DNA from: a virus
Lineage: Duplodnaviria; Heunggongvirae; Uroviricota; Caudoviricetes
Strand: one strand, 5' to 3'
Length of the DNA stretch: 19,453 bases
Virus record (IMG/VR): IMGVR_UViG_2675903433_000028
Coordinates: 1-19,453 of that record
Under the pieces are notes generated by a model. It was not told where the DNA came from and ran no database searches. It worked only from the letters and a program-made list of their open reading frames with translations. Below, in pieces: positions 10,950 to 18,344 of the stretch (within the stretch, counting starts at the first letter, position 1; each line of letters opens with the position of its first letter). Made by a program: the position numbers and the translations under genes.

Positions 10950-11558
<609 letters not shown>

Positions 11559-11710
11559 AGTCATTTGTCCATTGAGTGGGAATATTGCCGTCCGGGAGTA
11601 ATATGGTATCATTAAGTTAGAGTAGGTAGTGTAGATGGAATGAGGAGTATCATATGGTTATCACACAATCAGGTTGCTTTGAGTCAGGTTGTTTTGAGTA
11701 AAACAATAAA

Positions 11711-11737
11711 ACGCCCTTTAATGGGCGTATTTTTTTT
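11711..11737. terminator. Intrinsic terminator (bidirectional type) between the tail operon and the AT-rich membrane protein gene
   Basis: acgccc-tttaat-gggcgt is followed by attttttttt on the plus strand and preceded by an A-rich run, giving a U-tract on the minus strand as well. Confidence 0.6.
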
Positions 11738-11747
11738 AGGATTTAAA

Positions 11748-12641
11748 ATGCATTCTTTACAGAAATACATAAAACATAAATATACTCACTTAACTTTTTT
11801 TCTCTCATTACTTTTTTTCATGATATTTGAATCTCGAGAAGATATTATCAAGAAAATATTATCTTTTTCTCTCGATGAAGTTTTACCATTCTTAATGTTT
11901 GCGTTCTTCTCCGCCTTTATCAGCATAACAATAAAGGAAAAGATAGCAAAAAAATACCCAGAAACAAACGATGGGATTACCATTATCGCTTTAATCTTTG
12001 GTGTAACACTATATAGTGTATTTATATTATATTATTTATATGGTGATGTATACCAATCCACAATTGCTTTACTTATAAGTTCTGTGCTACTTGGCTCTGG
12101 GTGGTGGGTTCAGGCTACTGTGAGTAAAGTAGCCGCAAGAAAATCACACACCTTAAATACACTAATGAATCAAAGAAACAGTGAATTATTTCACAAAAAA
12201 GTCTCATCGGTAGCGAATACGTTCGGGCTTAGAAAAACCATAAATGAAATTATTGCCAAACAAAGACTTATCCCAAATGATAAAGATTTAAAAAATAAAA
12301 AGGTCCATGATAAATACATATCAGCAGGTAATGATATGTTCTTCGTTCTTAATTATTATGAGTTTATCTGTTCAGGAATAATAAATGGAGACTTTGATGA
12401 AGATTCAATGAGAGAATGTCTTGGACAAATTGTTCCGGGTCTCGAGGTTAGAGCATTTCATTTTATAAGAATTGCAAGAGAAATTTCAGGGAGTAGCTGC
12501 TTCTGTAATTTTGTTGCTGTTTCAGATAAATGGTCTACTAATGGAGGATCTCTTATTCTCAGACACGAGAAAGGAGAACCTGTGATCAATAACCTGACCC
12601 ATTGCTTTGAAGAAACAGCCTGTTATAACACAACATCTTAA
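11748..12641 (+). CDS. AT-rich membrane protein: N-terminal ~4 transmembrane helices plus ~170-aa soluble C-terminal domain; function unknown (candidate superinfection-exclusion or abortive-infection type moron)
   Basis: The ORF-track ORF begins at 11640 but reads through the terminator hairpin. The ATG at 11748 has an AGGA Shine-Dalgarno 8 nt upstream and is taken as the start (MHSLQKYIKHKYTHLTFFLSLLFFMIF...). Hydrophobic segments are obvious in the first ~130 aa. Composition is visibly AT-rich compared with the tail genes. Confidence 0.6.
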   Translation: MHSLQKYIKHKYTHLTFFLSLLFFMIFESREDIIKKILSFSLDEVLPFLMFAFFSAFISITIKEKIAKKYPETNDGITIIALIFGVTLYSVFILYYLYGDVYQSTIALLISSVLLGSGWWVQATVSKVAARKSHTLNTLMNQRNSELFHKKVSSVANTFGLRKTINEIIAKQRLIPNDKDLKNKKVHDKYISAGNDMFFVLNYYEFICSGIINGDFDEDSMRECLGQIVPGLEVRAFHFIRIAREISGSSCFCNFVAVSDKWSTNGGSLILRHEKGEPVINNLTHCFEETACYNTTS

Positions 12642-12647
12642 TATTTT

Positions 12648-12674
12648 GTAACCCATAATCGCTTTATGGGTTAC
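12648..12674. terminator. Hairpin between convergent genes (9-bp stem), probable terminator
   Basis: gtaacccat-aatcgcttt-atgggttac; the flanking U-tract is only moderate. Confidence 0.4.
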
Positions 12675-12692
12675 GTTAAATTTGCAATAAAA

Positions 12693-13169
12693 TTAATCGC
12701 CGCGCTTTAAGCATCCATCGTTTTTAGCTTGTTGATATAACTTACTTAGCCCAGAAAGAGGAAATGTAGCAATTTTTTCATTATCAACATAAGCATCTAT
12801 CGCATTAGCATTTGAATCTGCTGCATCTTGCCAAAAGGCATACCACCAAGAATCTCCAACCATTGACCCAAGATTGCTAAAAGGGTATTGCTCACCATCT
12901 AGTGTTAATACTATTTTACTCTTGTCAGCATTATACTCTTTTTTATTATTCGACGACCTTAGCAACAGGCCTAAACTACCTGCACTATCTGGTGATCCAT
13001 ACATGAAACCCATATCACATAAAAAACTTATCTTATCACCATTTTGATTATGGATTGTATATTCTCTCCCCCCTCTATCTTCAATTACATTCCATTGTAG
13101 AGGATCAATTTTTGCAAATACTCCTGCTGAAATTAACGATACAAATAATAAAAACCATCTCATATTCAT
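12693..13169 (-). CDS. Secreted/periplasmic protein, 158 aa, with N-terminal signal peptide; function unknown
   Basis: N-terminus MNMRWFLLFVSLISAGVFA-KID resembles a cleavable signal peptide. There is no lipobox Cys and no C-terminal aromatic residue, so it is not an obvious Lom/Ail barrel or lipoprotein. AT-rich. Confidence 0.6.
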   Translation of the reverse strand: MNMRWFLLFVSLISAGVFAKIDPLQWNVIEDRGGREYTIHNQNGDKISFLCDMGFMYGSPDSAGSLGLLLRSSNNKKEYNADKSKIVLTLDGEQYPFSNLGSMVGDSWWYAFWQDAADSNANAIDAYVDNEKIATFPLSGLSKLYQQAKNDGCLKRGD

Positions 13170-13191
13170 TTTTCTCGCTTCTTATCTGTAA

Positions 13192-13542
13192 TTATTCTGC
13201 AATATCATTTGCCCATTGCACGGCAGCAAAATGAGTGCCAAGGCCACTCAGGAAAGCAATTATTCCCAAAACAATACTAGCTGCTGTTGATTCAAACAAA
13301 GCACCAATGCTATAGCCAATAGCTCCCCATACTAAGCTAAAGACAATCATCAATGGTATTGCCAGAAATTTTATTCTTAAACTAAAAATCAGTCCAAGAA
13401 ATGAACCACCAAAGGCCCACCATGATTTAGACATTAAACCTATCAGTATTGACAGAATTCCTATTTCAATAAAGAGAATATTAGATTGCTCTTCATTGAA
13501 TTTCGCATTTGTTACACCTTTACGAACATGTTCAGATGACAT
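13192..13542 (-). CDS. Small inner-membrane protein, 116 aa, 3-4 predicted TM helices; co-transcribed with the downstream secreted protein gene
   Basis: GGAG Shine-Dalgarno before the ATG at 13542. The sequence is largely hydrophobic (ILFIEIGILSILIGL..., FLAIPLMIVFSLVWGAIGYSIGALF..., IVLGIIAFLSGLG). There is a 22-bp gap to the next gene. Confidence 0.6.
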   Translation of the reverse strand: MSSEHVRKGVTNAKFNEEQSNILFIEIGILSILIGLMSKSWWAFGGSFLGLIFSLRIKFLAIPLMIVFSLVWGAIGYSIGALFESTAASIVLGIIAFLSGLGTHFAAVQWANDIAE

Positions 13543-13688
13543 GATTAACTATCTCCAGCCACAGATAAAACGCCTTAAAATAACATGTTGTAGCACAAAG
13601 TTTCACCATGCAATGGTCAAAGTCTTTGATCCATATCAATTAGAGTTATACATTTTAGTTGCATAGCTAATAATTTATACGGCCGCAA

Positions 13689-13701
13689 ATTGCTCTAATT
13701 A
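13689..13701 (+). promoter_or_regulatory. Copy 1 of a recurring intergenic motif ATTGCTCTAAT(T/A)A
   Basis: attgctctaatta; the same core occurs at 15380-15393 and 17145-17160, always in plus orientation and upstream of a plus-strand gene. Confidence 0.4.
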
Positions 13702-13795
13702 TTTTGTTTTTTTTAGTTTCATATGCTACATTAACTCGCTTGCGTGCTAATGCATTTTCGGTTTATCCTAAACAAGCATCTTAGTAAAACGGATG

Positions 13796-13854
13796 CCGGG
13801 ATTGGAACCCCGGATAATGCAAAAGGCGACACAGACGCCAAAAGCGTCTTTTTT
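13796..13854 (+). ncRNA. Possible small RNA or leader element: hairpin followed by an intrinsic terminator, with no upstream plus-strand ORF
   Basis: Hairpin ccggg-attggaac-cccgg (13796-13813), then agacgc-caaaa-gcgtct + TTTTT (13833-13854). The nearest upstream genes are on the opposite strand. Confidence 0.35.
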
Positions 13855-13903
13855 ATGTCATGCCATCGCACAACCATACGTAGCACATAGCTACGAGATC
13901 AAT

Positions 13904-13979
13904 GGTAGTGCTGGCTGGGCTGCCAAAAGGCAGGCCGGTTCCCTTTTGCGCCGGTAGTTCCAACCCAGTCAGTGCTACC
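13904..13979 (+). promoter_or_regulatory. Long RNA stem-loop in the leader of the antirepressor operon (16-bp stem; plus-strand specific because of three G-U pairs)
   Basis: ggtagtgctggctggg (13904-13919) pairs with cccagtcagtgctacc (13964-13979): 13 Watson-Crick plus 3 G-U pairs on the plus-strand RNA, which would be C-A mismatches on the minus strand. The loop contains an inner hairpin caaaagg/ccttttg. Confidence 0.5.
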
Positions 13980-14039
13980 GCCATTGAGATTGGAACCTCA
14001 CGCGGTAGCTCCTTAAATTAGCAAAAGGAGGCTGCCAAT

Positions 14040-14261
14040 ATGGCTACTATCCCTACCCCAACTCATTCTGAATTCATCTGGCGCTTTTACTCCTGCCAGA
14101 AACGTCACTATCACTTCGTTATTGCACCGACAGAAGATGAGGCCCGCTCTCAGCTTCCTGACGCCCCATGTATTTTCTCTGCCCGTTTTTCCACTGATTC
14201 ACGCAATTCTCTCAGTTACTGGTGCCTCCCTGTTAACGCTTCTGCTCAGGAGGGACTATGA
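14040..14261 (+). CDS. 73-aa hypothetical protein, translationally coupled to the downstream antirepressor
   Basis: Strong Shine-Dalgarno (AAGGAGG) 8 nt upstream of the ATG. The stop overlaps the next start (ATGA at 14258-14261). An anti-Shine-Dalgarno segment ctcctt (14009-14014) can pair with aaggag (14025-14030). Confidence 0.55.
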   Translation: MATIPTPTHSEFIWRFYSCQKRHYHFVIAPTEDEARSQLPDAPCIFSARFSTDSRNSLSYWCLPVNASAQEGL

Positions 14262-15301
14262 GAACGTCATTAGTCACCCGTGAAGAAATGATTGAGGCAA
14301 TTGAACAGCACACAGCCTGTATGCCGACACGGGAGATCCCCGGCGCAATTGCCAACTATTTCATGATAACCAGGCGTTTTTATACCCGAACAGATAAGGC
14401 AGTGATCAACAGGCTACTGATAGCCGAGATCAGGGATTATTTGATTGAACAAGGACGTCTACGTTACGCAACGGTGGCAGCAGAAATGAGAAAGGAGGCA
14501 CATAGAGTGACCGGTAAAAATTTGAATGTTGAGAAACCAGCACCTGTTACGTCAGCTACGCCAACACCAGCCGTGAATGTCATCCCCAACACCGGAGACA
14601 CAATCGACAGCCAAACATTGTTGAAGATGGTCAATGAGGCACGCAAGTTATGTGGAGAACCAGAGGTTAGAAACAATAAATTCATCGAAAAAATACTCGA
14701 TGAACTTGAAGGTGAATTTTACACAAAAAGTGCAAAATCCCATGGCACAAGGGCTGGGCGCTCTTTTGAGGTCATCACCATGACCTACAAACAAGCCTTG
14801 CGAGTCGCCGCGCGCGAGTCAAAAGCGGTCCGCCGTTCGCTGATCGACAAACTGGAAGAATTGCAGCAGGCAAACTCCCCTGCCCCATCGATCCCCCAAA
14901 CATTACCAGAAGCTCTACGCCTGGCTGCCGAGTTGGCAGAACAGAAAATGCAGTTGGAACAACAGCTGGTGGCCGCAGCCCCTAAAGTCGATTTTGCCGA
15001 CCGGGTATCAGCGGCTAATGGAATCCTGATCGGGAACTTTGCAAAGGTTGTTGGGCTTAAGCAAAACGCGTTGTTTGCCTGGTTACGGGAGAACGGCATC
15101 CTGATAGCGTCCGGTGGACGTAAAAATGTGCCGTTCCAGCAATACATCAACGCCGGGTATTTCACGGTGAAAGAAGTGGTGCTGGATGATGAAAATGGCT
15201 ACCAGATACGGCTGACGCCCCAATTAACGGGTAAAGGCCAGCAGTGGTTAACTCGCAAGCTACTTGATGCTGGTTTGTTAAAACCAGTAGCAATAGGTTA
15301 A
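14258..15301 (+). CDS. Phage antirepressor-like protein with C-terminal KilAC/Ant-type domain (347 aa)
   Basis: The C-terminal ~130 aa (PKVDFADRVSAANGILIGNFAKVVGL...GYFTVKEVVLDDENGYQIRLTPQLTGKGQQWLTRKLLDAG) look like KilA-C/antirepressor domains and are clearly paralogous to the C-terminus of the next gene. Confidence 0.65.
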   Translation: MRTSLVTREEMIEAIEQHTACMPTREIPGAIANYFMITRRFYTRTDKAVINRLLIAEIRDYLIEQGRLRYATVAAEMRKEAHRVTGKNLNVEKPAPVTSATPTPAVNVIPNTGDTIDSQTLLKMVNEARKLCGEPEVRNNKFIEKILDELEGEFYTKSAKSHGTRAGRSFEVITMTYKQALRVAARESKAVRRSLIDKLEELQQANSPAPSIPQTLPEALRLAAELAEQKMQLEQQLVAAAPKVDFADRVSAANGILIGNFAKVVGLKQNALFAWLRENGILIASGGRKNVPFQQYINAGYFTVKEVVLDDENGYQIRLTPQLTGKGQQWLTRKLLDAGLLKPVAIG

Positions 15302-15379: not shown

Positions 15380-15393
15380 TTTGCTCTAATAAA
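15380..15393 (+). promoter_or_regulatory. Copy 2 of motif TTGCTCTAAT(T/A)A, about 75 bp upstream of the second antirepressor gene
   Basis: tttgctctaataaa. Confidence 0.4.
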
Positions 15394-15465
15394 TTTCGTT
15401 TTCTAAGTGCAAAGAATCACCATTTCGAGCTGGTGATTGAAGGTTGATGCAAATTTGGAGAAAAA

Positions 15466-16302: not shown

Positions 16303-17141
16303 CTAAAGTCACTTTCCTGAGCTGTATAACGATGAGCGATTTTACTTTTTCTGGCTATGAATTGGCCTGCTTTGTAACACACTCCGGTCTATCCCGTAGC
16401 GCCGGGCATATCCTGTCGCAATGTGCAAATCTCGCGGCAACAACCAGTGAATACTTCATTCACAAGCCTCACCGCCTGATCGCGGCAGAAACTGGTTATA
16501 GCCAATCAACCGTCGTTCGTGCATTCCGTGAAGCTGTAAACAAAGGAATTCTGTCTGTAGAGATTGTTATCGGCGATCACCGTGAACGTCGCGCTAACCT
16601 GTACCGGTTTACACCATCCTTTTTGGCCTTCGCACAACAAGCCAAAAATGCGCTGATTGAAAGCAAATTAAAGATCTCTTCAGCCGCAACCAAGGTTAAA
16701 ACTGTTCTCGCTAAGACATTGGCTTTATTTAATTTTTTATCCACACCCCCATGTCAAAATGATACCCCCTCCCCCTGTCAGGATGACGTGGCAATAAAGA
16801 ATAAGAAGTCACAAGTTAAAAAAACAAAAAGATCAGTTTCCGACGGTGCCGGAACGACCAGCCTCAAAAAACTGACTTCATGGATCGCTGAAGCAAAAGC
16901 AAAGGCTGACAATCTGCGGTTATCCAAAAAACGCGCTCAAAAACATGAGTTCAAGCAGAAAGTAGAGGCGGCAGCGCGGAAATATGCTTACCTGAAGAAC
17001 AAGCGTTCTCCTGATATTGGCTGGATATCAAACTTCGATAATCTACCGCATTGCATGACGGTAAACGAAGCTCTTAATGCGGTATTAGCCAAAAATAAAG
17101 ATAACGAACAATGGGGTATACCGGTAGGATTCAGAGGGTGA
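16296..17141 (+). CDS. Hypothetical DNA-binding protein with a helix-turn-helix-like segment and a Lys-rich C-terminal half (start uncertain: 16296 or 16332)
   Basis: Segment ...AAETGYSQSTVVRAFREAVNKGIL... resembles an HTH. The C-terminus is basic and K-rich. Neither candidate ATG has a good Shine-Dalgarno. Confidence 0.45.
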   Translation: MLAKVTFLSCITMSDFTFSGYELACFVTHSGLSRSAGHILSQCANLAATTSEYFIHKPHRLIAAETGYSQSTVVRAFREAVNKGILSVEIVIGDHRERRANLYRFTPSFLAFAQQAKNALIESKLKISSAATKVKTVLAKTLALFNFLSTPPCQNDTPSPCQDDVAIKNKKSQVKKTKRSVSDGAGTTSLKKLTSWIAEAKAKADNLRLSKKRAQKHEFKQKVEAAARKYAYLKNKRSPDIGWISNFDNLPHCMTVNEALNAVLAKNKDNEQWGIPVGFRG

Positions 17142-17144
17142 TAG

Positions 17145-17160
17145 ATTGCTCTAATTATAA
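17145..17160 (+). promoter_or_regulatory. Copy 3 of motif ATTGCTCTAATTA, about 150 bp upstream of the DUF3800-like gene
   Basis: attgctctaattataa, immediately after the stop codon at 17139-17141. Confidence 0.4.
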
Positions 17161-17309
17161 CCATGCATACTTTCAACACCTCTAGTTTGCCATGAGGAAA
17201 ACTCATAGGCGTCCTGGTAAGATGACGTAGTTAGCAAATCAGAACGTCCAATTATTGCAATTAATAAACAACTAACGGACAATTCTACCTAACAATAAGT
17301 GGAGTTAAC

Positions 17310-18014
17310 ATGTTGAACCGAAGAACATTTAATGTATTCTGCGATGAATCCTGTCACCTACTAAATGATCATAATAAAGTCATGGTATTGGGTGCGCTTT
17401 GGTGTCCTGGCACTATCACAAAAAAAATTGCTAGAGACATCAAGGGATTAAAATTAAAACACAATTTAAAACCTGATTTCGAAATCAAGTGGACTAAAGT
17501 ATCTGCGTCCAAAGTTGAATTTTACTTAGAGGTCGTAGATTACTTCTTCAGCAACCCAGCATTGCGCTTTAGAGGTGTTGTTGTTCCTGATAAAGAGCAA
17601 CTGGACCATGCTCGATTCCATCAAGATCATAATACTTTCTATTATAAGATGTTTTTTTATGTCTTAAAAAACATAATAGAAAGTAACAACACATACAATA
17701 TCTACCTAGATATAAAAGATACTTTAGGTATTGAAAAAATTGAGAAATTAAGAGGAGTTCTTCACAATGATCGCTATGATTACAATCATGAGTCGATAAA
17801 CAGAATTCAACATATACGATCTCATGAAGTGCAACAATTGCAGCTAACGGATCTTTTCATTGGTGCGTTAGGCTACGTTCATCGAGGAATGAATAGCAAC
17901 GCGGGAAAAATCCAAGTCATAAACAGGATAAAATCACATACAAACAGGGAGTTACTAAAAAGCACTCTTCCAACAGAAAGTAAATTTAATATTTTCGTGT
18001 GGGAGGCTCGCTGA
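17310..18014 (+). CDS. DUF3800-like protein (234 aa), function unknown
   Basis: GGAG Shine-Dalgarno 5 nt upstream. The N-terminal FCDESCHL and C-terminal QLQLTDLFIGALGY motifs match my recollection of the DUF3800 family (conserved Asp/Glu near the N-terminus, Q-L-x-D-L near the C-terminus). The gene is AT-rich. Confidence 0.5.
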   Translation: MLNRRTFNVFCDESCHLLNDHNKVMVLGALWCPGTITKKIARDIKGLKLKHNLKPDFEIKWTKVSASKVEFYLEVVDYFFSNPALRFRGVVVPDKEQLDHARFHQDHNTFYYKMFFYVLKNIIESNNTYNIYLDIKDTLGIEKIEKLRGVLHNDRYDYNHESINRIQHIRSHEVQQLQLTDLFIGALGYVHRGMNSNAGKIQVINRIKSHTNRELLKSTLPTESKFNIFVWEAR

Positions 18015-18289
18015 TGCTTCAAATGCCAGATTTATTGTACTTCAATGGAAGTTGGCAAGAGTATATAGACGATGTATATGATGTTGTTAGAGAAGATATT
18101 TTAATCTCTAATATAACGTTTAAGGGTCTCCCTGTTCGATTACGTTATTCACCGGAATATGATGGGAAAGAGTTCGGATTTTGGCATTTAGTATCAGAGG
18201 GAAAAATAGAAGAAGAACGAATACCTGATCTTCAAGAAACAGCCCGTATACGGGCTGTTTTAACAGATATCTACAGTAAGCGGTCCTAA
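18014..18289 (+). CDS. 91-aa hypothetical protein, translationally coupled partner of the DUF3800-like gene
   Basis: The ATG at 18014 overlaps the upstream TGA (TGATG), with a GGGAGG Shine-Dalgarno 7 nt upstream. The ORF-track start at 17999 is a GTG inside the upstream gene. Confidence 0.5.
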   Translation: MLQMPDLLYFNGSWQEYIDDVYDVVREDILISNITFKGLPVRLRYSPEYDGKEFGFWHLVSEGKIEEERIPDLQETARIRAVLTDIYSKRS

Positions 18290-18344
18290 ACTGTGGGTAT
18301 CTTCAAAGATCAGACTATCAGGGAGCTAAAGCCAAAACAGTGGC

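What the first reader, a model, noticed from the sequence alone, without database searches (positions are those of the whole stretch)
12693..13542. AT-rich operon pairing a small polytopic membrane protein with a signal-peptide (periplasmic) protein
Two co-directional minus-strand genes are separated by 22 bp: a 116-aa protein that is almost entirely transmembrane, and a 158-aa protein with a classical cleavable signal peptide and a Trp/Gly-rich, beta-looking mature region. The arrangement suggests an envelope-acting module, such as a superinfection-exclusion pair blocking DNA entry or a receptor, or a secreted effector with membrane immunity protein. It is not a lysis cassette: there is no endolysin, and the secreted protein lacks spanin-like coiled-coil character.
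Basis: partly seen in the sequence, partly recalled or inferred. Interest (0 to 1): 0.55.

Follow-up and report, generated by a model that had tools for sequence, protein, structure and literature searches.

The report
Envelope gene pair replacing P1 sim
The two genes are real and fill the slot in a P1-like phage-plasmid where phage P1 keeps its superinfection-exclusion (sim) genes, so they probably help a carrier cell keep other phages out; that role is inferred from position only, and the two genes are separable parts, not a fixed pair.

Summary
Two minus-strand ORFs (13192-13542, 116 aa; 12693-13169, 158 aa) lie 22 bp apart in a 35-36% GC island inside 47-49% GC DNA. Both are under purifying selection.

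The window is a P1-like (IncY) phage-plasmid. The pair sits between pmgC and the C1 operator/c4-icd-ant immunity region. That is the position and orientation of P1 simA-simB-simC, a known low-GC variable region. There is no sequence similarity to the Sim proteins.

The 158-aa protein belongs to the YfjT family (Pfam PF27224; E. coli K-12 CP4-57 YfjT, hhalign 97%). It has a signal peptide and two invariant Cys, and models as a beta-rich fold weakly like IalB. YfjT-like genes occupy the simC-equivalent position in about half of the P1-like elements sampled, usually with a different secreted partner.

The 116-aa protein is a 4-helix inner-membrane protein with an invariant cytoplasmic N-terminal motif. 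Its family is large and has no Pfam or NCBIfam model. Members often stand alone on mobile elements of distant bacteria.

Best reading: a mosaic envelope cassette that replaces sim, probably for superinfection exclusion (inferred, about 0.45). It is not a toxin-immunity pair or a lysis cassette. Modest interest.

The parts
13192..13542 (-). Gene for a 116-aa inner-membrane protein ('TM116'). It has four helices, probably N-in/C-in, and an invariant N-terminal motif VRKGxTNAxFNE. It belongs to a large family with no Pfam or NCBIfam model; the only library match is PHROG 15014, function unknown.
   Evidence: ORF; hydropathy; AF2 pLDDT 89.7 with 4 helices; alignment A3 invariant columns; 500 representatives at E<=1e-3; rare N-terminal Zn-ribbon fusions place the N-terminus in the cytoplasm; no Pfam, NCBIfam or PADLOC hit; phrog_15014, unknown function; dN/dS 0.08.
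13170..13191 (-). 22-bp intergenic spacer carrying the ribosome-binding site of the downstream gene. It implies co-transcription.
   Evidence: Sequence.
12693..13169 (-). Gene for a 158-aa exported protein of the YfjT family (PF27224). The signal peptide spans residues 1-19 (VFA|K). The mature domain is beta-rich, with invariant Cys51 and Cys153 (probable disulfide).
13543..13688 (-). Cassette-specific upstream region that must hold the promoter of the pair. No good sigma-70 match was found.
   Evidence: Alignment with P1, P7 and Ro157c2YLVW shows homology stops at the C1 operator. The promoter scan found no minus-strand site here.
13689..13705 (+). C1 repressor operator (Oc4/Op51-like). It marks the right-hand boundary of the variable cassette and the start of the conserved c4-icd-ant immunity operon.
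   Evidence: 2 mismatches to ATTGCTCTAATAAATTT; conserved across four P1-like elements; P1 annotation.
12647..12675 (.). 12-bp-stem hairpin between the convergent secreted-protein gene and the DUF4760 gene. It is a likely shared transcription stop.
   Evidence: Terminator-like site; sequence.
11748..12641 (+). Neighbouring cargo gene in the same AT-rich island: a DUF4760 membrane protein (297 aa from the RefSeq start; the ORF extends up to 11640). It is convergent with the pair. In sister elements a 344-aa SH3-domain gene replaces it, so it is not part of the pair.
   Evidence: Pfam DUF4760, E 1.1e-13; RefSeq annotation; SH3 variant.
10950..11516 (-). pmgC, the conserved left flank of the variable slot.
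   Evidence: 95-99% identical to pmgC of P1-like phages; annotation.
13898..13985 (+). C4 antisense RNA, part of the conserved right flank together with icd (14040-14261) and ant1 (14258-15301).
   Evidence: Rfam RF01695, 76.2 bits; Pfam ANT.

Best explanation
The pair is a mosaic lysogenic-conversion cassette in the 'sim' variable slot of a P1-like phage-plasmid. It replaces simA-simB-simC of P1.

The downstream gene encodes a Sec-exported, probably disulfide-bonded periplasmic protein of the YfjT family. This family is the commonest occupant of the simC-equivalent position in P1-like elements. The upstream gene encodes a small four-helix inner-membrane protein. Its conserved N-terminus faces the cytoplasm, and it comes from a broad family that travels as a single-gene cargo on phages, plasmids and islands.

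The most likely function is superinfection exclusion. The products are made in the plasmid-carrying cell and sit in the periplasm and inner membrane. There they would interfere with passage of incoming phage DNA or ejection proteins after adsorption, as P1 Sim is reported to do.

The two proteins most likely act independently or additively rather than as an obligate complex.

Shown: gene reality, genomic position, YfjT family membership, the export signal and membrane helices predicted from sequence and AF2 models, and separability of the two genes. Inferred: the exclusion function and its mechanism.
For: Position:
- The window carries sit, pmgB, tub, pmgC, the island, a C1 operator, C4 RNA, icd, ant1, kilA and repL. 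This matches P1 gene order, with the pair in the place and orientation of simC-simB-simA.
- simABC is one of eight low-GC variable regions of P1-like phage-plasmids (PMC9603915).
- Sim is credited with preventing DNA entry by superinfecting phage (PMC8546580 citing Devlin 1982 and Kliem & Dreiseikelmann 1989).
- simABC is non-essential for plaque formation (PMC10695390).

Slot survey (66 IMG/VR loci plus references):
- Every cassette type encodes only signal-peptide, lipoprotein or TM proteins.
- The types are SimA-long + YfjT-like (n=19), lipoprotein + DUF5384 (P7 type, n=14), simABC (n=15), and TM116 + YfjT-like with either DUF4760 or an SH3 protein (n=2+6).
- The P7 lipoprotein gives a sub-threshold TraT match (surface exclusion; E 7e-5, below the curated cut-off).

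Selection pattern:
- YfjT-like alleles are only 28-40% identical in backbones whose pmgC is 97-99% identical. This fits a specificity determinant that is replaced often.
- TM116 has dN/dS 0.08 and YfjT-like 0.30.

The pair recurs in diverged form in a Salmonella P1-like plasmid (72% and 28% identity).
Against: - There is no sequence similarity to SimA, SimB or SimC.
- There is no match to any PADLOC defence model.
- Neither family has any functional literature.
- Position in a cargo hotspot is weak evidence of function. One sister element carries a pore-forming colicin and its immunity gene in the same slot, so the slot is not reserved for exclusion genes.
- K-12 YfjT lies in a non-P1 cryptic prophage and had no tblastn match in the 50,697 phage records.
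- TM116 relatives occur in MAGs labelled Bacillota and Oscillospiraceae, so the family cannot depend on a periplasmic partner.
- No convincing promoter was found upstream.
Confidence: 0.45

Rival explanations
1. The two genes are independent cargo genes ('morons') with envelope functions unrelated to phage exclusion. Possible roles are envelope-stress tolerance, host-interaction or adhesion traits, or resistance to bacteriocins or complement. They simply landed in a recombination-permissive low-GC hotspot.
For: - The slot is a general cargo hotspot. It holds DUF4760, SH3-domain, IS and colicin/immunity genes in sister elements.
- K-12 YfjT sits in an operon with a lipoprotein (YfjS) and a small TM protein (YpjK) in a cryptic prophage, with no known phage phenotype.
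- TM116 relatives lie in varied chromosomal contexts.
Against: The only function demonstrated for this slot is exclusion, in P1. The restriction of slot contents to exported or membrane proteins, and the high allelic turnover of YfjT-like genes in near-identical phage backbones, look like phage-phage conflict rather than a host-benefit trait.
Confidence: 0.3
2. TM116 is a stand-alone abortive-infection or entry-exclusion membrane protein. It would be either a RexB-like or holin-like membrane permeabiliser triggered by infection, or a plasmid-type entry-exclusion factor. The YfjT-like protein would be functionally unrelated to it.
For: - TM116 relatives are single genes next to defence-like or mobile genes: an AAA_15/AAA_21 ATPase in Vibrio, a 646-aa protein whose N-terminus looks nuclease-like and whose C-terminus looks helicase-like by eye (not scanned against any library) in Pseudomonas, a VapBC-looking toxin-antitoxin pair (by eye), and an integrase.
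- A 32%-identical relative sits beside stbB and type IV secretion genes on Moraxella bovis plasmids.
- The cytoplasmic N-terminal motif is invariant, which suggests a specific intracellular partner.
Confidence: 0.15
3. The pair is a secreted toxin or effector (158 aa) with a cognate membrane immunity protein (116 aa).
For: The arrangement of a small polytopic membrane protein next to an exported protein superficially resembles bacteriocin/immunity loci. A genuine colicin/immunity pair does occur in the same slot of a sister element.
Against: - YfjT-like genes occur without TM116 in most P1-like elements (types A and H, about 27 of 66) and in K-12.
- The protein has no toxin or bacteriocin domain.
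- A Sec signal alone delivers only to the periplasm of the producer.
- TM116 has no colicin-immunity match.
- In element L033 the colicin has its own canonical PF03857 immunity gene alongside a TM116 relative.
Confidence: 0.04
4. The pair is a lysis-related cassette (holin or antiholin plus a periplasmic lysis accessory).
For: Small multi-TM phage proteins are often holins. One family member gave a marginal LydA-holin hit (E 0.045).
Against: There is no endolysin or spanin nearby. The P1 slot is an immunity-region locus expressed divergently from c4, not the lysis region. simABC at the same position is non-essential for plaque formation. The family also occurs on plasmids and chromosomes without phage genes.
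Confidence: 0.02

Closest known systems
Phage P1 superimmunity operon simA-simB-simC (Sim; superinfection exclusion)
   Same: Identical genomic slot (between pmgC and the C1 operator/c4) and the same orientation. Low GC. Small exported products: SimA, SimB and SimC all start with signal peptides. P1 sim is non-essential for lytic growth.
   Different: No detectable sequence similarity. Sim proteins have no polytopic membrane member. SimC is 264 aa against 158 aa here. Exclusion has been shown only for Sim.
E. coli K-12 YfjT (CP4-57 cryptic prophage; Pfam PF27224 YfjT)
   Same: Homologous (hhalign 97.3%, E 2.3e-11). Similar length. Signal peptide. Two Cys at corresponding positions: one in the N-terminal third (FLCDM here, INCTG in K-12) and one near the C-terminus. 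Shared YV(D/N)xxK(I/V)xxF motif. Encoded on a mobile element downstream of other small envelope proteins.
   Different: About 27% identity. K-12 YfjT follows ypjK (78-aa TM protein, unrelated to TM116) and the lipoprotein gene yfjS, in an integrated element rather than a P1-like plasmid. Its function is equally unknown.
SimA-long + YfjT-like cassette of punavirus vB_EcoM-Ro157c2YLVW and Cronobacter phage JK004
   Same: Same slot. A YfjT-like gene lies immediately upstream of pmgC (36-37% identical) and is co-transcribed with an upstream envelope-protein gene.
   Different: There the partner is a 190-224-aa secreted protein whose N-terminus equals P1 SimA, not a polytopic membrane protein. A Salmonella plasmid carries all three genes.
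IalB (invasion-associated locus B) fold, PDB 3dtd
Small inner-membrane exclusion proteins (T4 Imm, P22 SieA, lambda RexB, plasmid entry-exclusion proteins)
   Same: Small size, polytopic inner-membrane location, carried on phages and plasmids as accessory genes. This comparison rests on general knowledge and was not tested here.
   Different: No sequence or family match in Pfam, PHROGs or PADLOC. The invariant VRKGxTNAxFNE N-terminal motif, to my knowledge, is not a feature of those proteins.

Membership tests
P1 Sim superimmunity proteins (SimA/SimB/SimC) | Sequence homology to SimC (or to SimA/SimB) | tested here: not met
   BLASTP of the 158-aa protein against SimC gives E 3.8 and against SimB E 1.2. 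No slot ORF of the window type matched Sim references at E<=1e-4.
P1 Sim superimmunity proteins (SimA/SimB/SimC) | Location between pmgC and Oc4/c4, transcribed divergently from c4-icd-ant | tested here: met
P1 Sim superimmunity proteins (SimA/SimB/SimC) | Cleavable signal peptide and periplasmic product | tested here: inconclusive
   For the 158-aa protein: n-h-c region, invariant Ala at -1, low pLDDT over residues 1-19. No SignalP run and no experiment. The 116-aa protein is a membrane protein, not a periplasmic one.
P1 Sim superimmunity proteins (SimA/SimB/SimC) | Blocks superinfecting P1 after adsorption (exclusion phenotype) | not testable with these tools
   Needs plating, DNA-entry and transfection-bypass assays.
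YfjT family (Pfam PF27224) | Significant match to the family model | tested here: met
   The database's precomputed Pfam hits list PF27224 for the 93%-identical cluster P0001 and 20 further relatives. It is named YfjT. The local Pfam copy lacks this model, so the direct scan was empty. hhalign of A2 against K-12 YfjT gives 97.3% probability, E 2.3e-11.
YfjT family (Pfam PF27224) | Signal peptide plus two conserved cysteines framing a ~135-aa beta-rich domain | tested here: met
   C51 and C153 are invariant in 15 sequences. K-12 YfjT has Cys in the N-terminal third (INCTG, corresponding to FLCDM) and near the C-terminus. AF2 shows 9 strands and 2 helices.
Pore-forming colicin immunity proteins (PF03857 and relatives) | Match of the 116-aa protein to a colicin-immunity model, next to a bacteriocin gene | tested here: not met
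   No Pfam hit. No bacteriocin gene in the window island. In L033 a true PF01024 colicin has its own PF03857 immunity gene next to a TM116 relative.
Phage lysis cassette (holin/endolysin/spanin) | Holin family match with an adjacent endolysin or spanin | tested here: not met
   Only one of 12 family members gave Phage_holin_3_3, at E 0.045. The neighbours are DUF4760 and pmgC.
Catalogued anti-phage defence systems (PADLOC-DB 2.0) | Match to any defence-protein model | tested here: not met
   No hits at E<=0.1 for the two proteins, for DUF4760 or for the SH3 variant.
IalB family (invasion-associated locus B) | Sequence or fold membership | tested here: inconclusive

The most novel reading that the evidence does not exclude
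YfjT-family periplasmic proteins would be a previously unrecognised and widespread class of superinfection-exclusion determinants of P1-like phage-plasmids, with rapidly diversifying alleles setting exclusion specificity. One possible mechanism is binding a periplasm-crossing ejection component such as the Sit tape-measure/transglycosylase. Independently, TM116 would define a new pan-bacterial family of single-gene inner-membrane anti-entry or abortive-infection proteins carried by phages, plasmids and islands.
Probability: 0.2. Interest if true: 0.6.

Novelty: new variant of a known kind. Interest (0 to 1): 0.33.

Why it matters
P1-like phage-plasmids are common in clinical E. coli. About 12% of complete E. 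coli genomes gave a match somewhere in the 2.6-kb query, mostly to its conserved P1-like flanks, and these elements spread resistance genes.

What they carry in the sim slot probably decides which related phage-plasmids can enter a carrier cell. That affects transduction and plasmid competition.

The survey suggests the slot holds a small set of interchangeable envelope cassettes. The textbook simABC is only one of them, and the uncharacterised YfjT family is the most frequent. This gives a testable first hypothesis for an E. coli K-12 y-gene family (yfjT) and for a large unnamed membrane-protein family. The finding itself is still two 'hypothetical proteins' in a known variable region, with function inferred from position alone.

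Tried and rejected
- Homology to Sim proteins: none.
- Pfam, NCBIfam and PADLOC scans of both proteins: empty or insignificant. PHROGs gave only unknown-function families.
- PDB sequence searches with profiles: nothing.
- AFDB50 Foldseek was unavailable.
- YpjK, the small TM protein upstream of K-12 yfjT, is unrelated to TM116.
- tblastn of TM116 and of K-12 YfjT against GenBank phages: no match.
- Promoter scan upstream of the pair: no convincing sigma-70 site.
- Literature on YfjT and DUF4760: no functional data. The P1 genome paper PMC523184 is not held. Pfeifer & Rocha 2024 does not discuss the sim slot.
- Fusion partners of TM116 relatives (Zn-ribbon, HNH, TPR, LPD7) are sporadic. They gave topology information only, not function.
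- Toxin-immunity and lysis readings were rejected on co-occurrence and context (see rival explanations).
- One plasmid hit (CP148548.1) has the genes broken into fragments, probably an assembly-quality issue, and was ignored.

Full report
**1. The observation**

The two minus-strand ORFs exist exactly as described: 13192-13542 (116 aa) and 12693-13169 (158 aa). The spacer is 13170-13191, 22 bp, and both genes have plausible ribosome-binding sites. They lie in an AT-rich island. GC is 0.33-0.37 over roughly 11500-13500, against 0.47-0.50 on both sides. The two genes are at 0.362 and 0.352, against 0.474 for pmgC and 0.489 for ant1.

The 116-aa product has hydrophobic stretches covering about residues 20-106. 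Its AlphaFold2 model is confident (pLDDT 89.7) and shows four helices at 3-38, 41-54, 58-81 and 86-115.

The 158-aa product starts with a textbook n-h-c signal peptide: MNMR, then WFLLFVSLISAGVF, then VFA|K. The Ala at -1 is invariant in 15 homologues, and the first 19 residues have low pLDDT. The rest folds confidently (pLDDT 84.5) into nine strands and two helices.

Both are real genes, not chance ORFs. Against a 95%-identical allele, dN/dS is 0.08 for the membrane protein and 0.30 for the secreted one. Both have diverged homologues. SignalP and DeepTMHMM were not available, so export and topology remain predictions.

**2. Where it is**

The window is a segment of a P1-like (IncY) phage-plasmid. 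Gene order is:
- sit (SLT domain), pmgB, tub and pmgC on the minus strand;
- the AT-rich island;
- a C1 operator at 13689-13705;
- an isrK-like RNA and the C4 antisense RNA (13898-13985);
- icd, ant1, kilA and repL on the plus strand.

In phage P1 the interval between pmgC and the c4 operator holds simC-simB-simA on the same strand, divergent from c4. The pair is therefore a replacement of the P1 superimmunity operon.

Alignment of four P1-like elements shows that homology runs up to the C1 operator and stops there. On the other side it ends about 220-235 bp beyond the pmgC start. The variable cassette therefore spans about 11.74-13.69 kb.

The literature lists simABC as one of eight low-GC, highly variable regions of P1-like phage-plasmids (PMC9603915). 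Sim is credited with preventing DNA injection by superinfecting phage (PMC8546580 citing Devlin 1982 and Kliem & Dreiseikelmann 1989). simA, simB and simC are non-essential for plaque formation (PMC10695390).

The exact island is present at about 98.8% identity in 25 PLSDB plasmids and 34 complete E. coli genomes. The pair alone is present in 52 plasmids, out of about 670 that match the conserved flanks.

**3. What the secreted protein is**

It has no similarity to SimC or SimB. The local Pfam, NCBIfam and PADLOC libraries gave nothing, and PHROGs gave phrog_3429 of unknown function.

The large protein database carries a precomputed hit to PF27224, named YfjT, for its 93%-identical cluster and for all relatives found. 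A profile of 15 relatives aligns to E. coli K-12 YfjT (b2637, cryptic prophage CP4-57) with 97.3% probability, E 2.3e-11.

Two cysteines (C51, C153) are invariant, which suggests a periplasmic disulfide. This is an inference.

The fold is only weakly like solved structures:

Among viral models the best match is a 147-aa Serratia phage 'putative adhesin' (E 1.9e-10, TM about 0.75), and an IalB-annotated phage protein appears at E 0.02.

YfjT has no functional literature. In K-12 it is the last gene of ypjK (78-aa TM protein) - yfjS (lipoprotein) - yfjT.

**4. What the membrane protein is**

No Pfam, NCBIfam, PADLOC or PDB match was found. PHROGs gave phrog_15014, unknown function.

A profile search of 1.84 billion cluster representatives found 500 relatives at E<=1e-3 and 227 at E<=1e-10. 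Most are 112-125 aa long.

The N-terminal motif V-R-K-G-x-T-N-A-x-F-N-E is invariant across relatives 54-72% identical overall, and glycine-rich helix motifs are also conserved. Occasional N-terminal zinc-ribbon fusions place that N-terminus in the cytoplasm. With four helices, this implies an N-in/C-in topology.

**5. Is it a pair?**

I surveyed the icd-to-pmgC interval in 66 IMG/VR P1-like contigs plus reference phages. The cassette types were:

| Type | Contents | n | Reference element |
|---|---|---|---|
| A | 224-aa secreted 'SimA-long' + YfjT-like | 19 | Ro157c2YLVW; Cronobacter phage JK004 is similar |
| B | Lipoprotein + DUF5384 secreted protein | 14 | P7 |
| C | simA + simB + simC | 15 | P1 |
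| D | SimA-long + a 33%-identical SimC relative | 1 | - |
| F | TM116 + YfjT-like + convergent DUF4760 | 2 (plus the window) | the window |
| G | TM116 + YfjT-like + co-directional 344-aa SH3-domain protein | 6 | - |
| H | Truncated SimA-long + a different YfjT-like allele + a 357-394-aa protein | about 8 | - |
| Others | Rearranged or IS-containing variants | few | - |

A Salmonella P1-like plasmid has SimA-long + TM116 (72% identity) + YfjT-like (28%).

So YfjT-like genes occupy the simC-equivalent position in roughly half of the sampled elements, mostly without TM116.

Conversely, TM116 relatives occur alone in many other settings:
- a chromosomal metabolic context;
- beside an AAA ATPase in Vibrio;
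- beside an integrase;
- beside a VapBC-looking pair (by eye) in a deltaproteobacterial MAG, and beside a large protein that looks like a nuclease-helicase by eye (not scanned) in Pseudomonas;
- in MAGs labelled Oscillospiraceae and Bacillota;
- next to what looks like a tape-measure gene in a 68-kb viral contig;
- at 32% identity, beside stbB and type IV secretion genes on Moraxella bovis plasmids.

In two further settings TM116 directly follows a different secreted protein, DUF4431.

The conclusion is that this specific pairing is a mosaic of two separable modules. It is co-transcribed here but is not an obligate two-component system.

**6. Mechanism**

I commit to superinfection exclusion as the most likely function (about 0.45). 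Three observations support it:
- The only function demonstrated for this slot is exclusion.
- Every cassette type found there encodes only exported, lipoprotein or membrane proteins. The P7 lipoprotein even gives a sub-threshold TraT (surface-exclusion) match.
- YfjT-like alleles are 28-40% identical in backbones whose pmgC is 97-99% identical. That is the pattern expected of a conflict or specificity determinant.

The inferred picture is as follows. The YfjT-like protein would act in the periplasm, and TM116 in the inner membrane, to hinder transit of incoming DNA or ejection proteins after adsorption. They would act independently or additively.

None of this is shown. The slot also carries non-exclusion cargo, including a bona fide pore-forming colicin with its immunity gene in one sister element. 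No known defence model matches.

The rivals are:
- unrelated envelope cargo genes (0.30);
- TM116 as a stand-alone abortive-infection or entry-exclusion protein, with YfjT unrelated to it (0.15);
- toxin plus immunity (0.04), contradicted by co-occurrence;
- a lysis cassette (0.02).

**7. Comparison and novelty**

By position it works like P1 sim, but it is not a member of the Sim protein families, because the homology test failed. The secreted protein is a member of the YfjT family. The membrane protein belongs to a large family with no Pfam or NCBIfam model.

The variable nature of the sim region is already published. Both genes are annotated as hypothetical proteins in RefSeq and are clustered in PHROGs.

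To my knowledge, and judging from the papers held here, three points are new:
- the catalogue of slot alleles, with YfjT as the commonest occupant;
- the recognition that P1 simA is the 5' remnant of a longer gene;
- the breadth and conserved motif of the TM116 family.

I rate this a new variant of a known kind, of modest interest (0.33). It would be more interesting (about 0.6) if YfjT or TM116 prove to be new exclusion families, which I put at about 0.2.

Noticed in passing
L003 2413-2571 (P1 simA) versus L004 2802-3449, L005 2901-3470 and L009 4234-4902: P1 SimA (52 aa) is identical over residues 11-45 to the N-terminus of 190-224-aa secreted proteins found intact in the same slot of other P1-like phages (Ro157c2YLVW, JK004, a Salmonella plasmid, many IMG/VR contigs). 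P1 simA therefore looks like a truncated remnant of a longer 'SimA-long' gene.
   Followed up: partly
L033 5060-6208 (+) and 6234-6770 (-): A 96.7-kb IMG/VR P1-like contig carries a 382-aa pore-forming colicin (PF01024, E 7.9e-15) with a glycine-rich colicin-type N-terminus, and an opposite-strand 178-aa colicin immunity protein (PF03857, E 4.5e-8). They lie in the sim slot next to DUF4431, a TM116 relative and a convergent YfjT-like gene.
   Followed up: partly
window 13776-13854 (+): Rfam match to the isrK Hfq-binding sRNA (58.5 bits, above gathering) just upstream of the C4 antisense RNA (13898-13985). RefSeq annotates a 39-aa 'ash family protein' ORF in this stretch.
   Followed up: no
window 11640-12641 (+), especially 11711-11728: The DUF4760 ORF can start at 11640 (333 aa), but RefSeq starts it at 11748 (297 aa). 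A GC-rich hairpin with a T-run (11711-11728) lies inside the longer version, which favours the shorter gene. The protein has about 4 N-terminal TM segments and a soluble DUF4760 domain. No functional literature.
   Followed up: partly
L014 1251-1772 (P7 upf50.5): The P7 lipoprotein occupying the sim slot gives a sub-threshold match to TraT, the F-plasmid surface-exclusion/complement-resistance lipoprotein (E 7.2e-5, 23 bits against a cut-off of 31), and to the glycine-zipper 2TM domain. RefSeq labels it 'DNA methyltransferase', which looks wrong.
   Followed up: no
L010 439-1608, L011 2-955, L033 3145-4354: TM116 relatives directly follow (13 nt gap or overlap) a signal-peptide protein with a DUF4431 domain in three loci, two of which (L010, L011) carry the same gene. 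This is a second recurrent 'secreted protein + TM116' arrangement with a non-homologous partner.
   Followed up: partly
L115 4001-4360 (Moraxella bovis plasmids): A 32%-identical TM116 relative is conserved on 15 small Moraxella bovis plasmids. It lies downstream of stbB and near MobF relaxase, coupling-protein and VirB2 genes, a place where plasmid entry-exclusion genes are sometimes found.
   Followed up: no
window 17000-18300: A second AT-rich island (GC 0.34-0.37) holds a DUF3800 protein (17310-18014) and a 96-aa ORF. It corresponds to the rlfA/rlfB variable region of P1.
   Followed up: no
window 15380-15396 (+): A second C1 operator match (1 mismatch) lies upstream of kilA, at the position of P1 OrepL/Op53.
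   Followed up: no
L018, L019, L020 (match at about 4001-4348, or 3096-3443 in L020): Nearly identical TM116 relatives (N-terminus MSHNEVRKGM(T/S)NAKFNEEQSGILFGEIFII...) occur in MAGs labelled Bacillota, Pseudomonas and Pseudidiomarina with entirely different neighbours. This suggests recent single-gene horizontal transfer, or mis-binning of the Bacillota contig.
   Followed up: no
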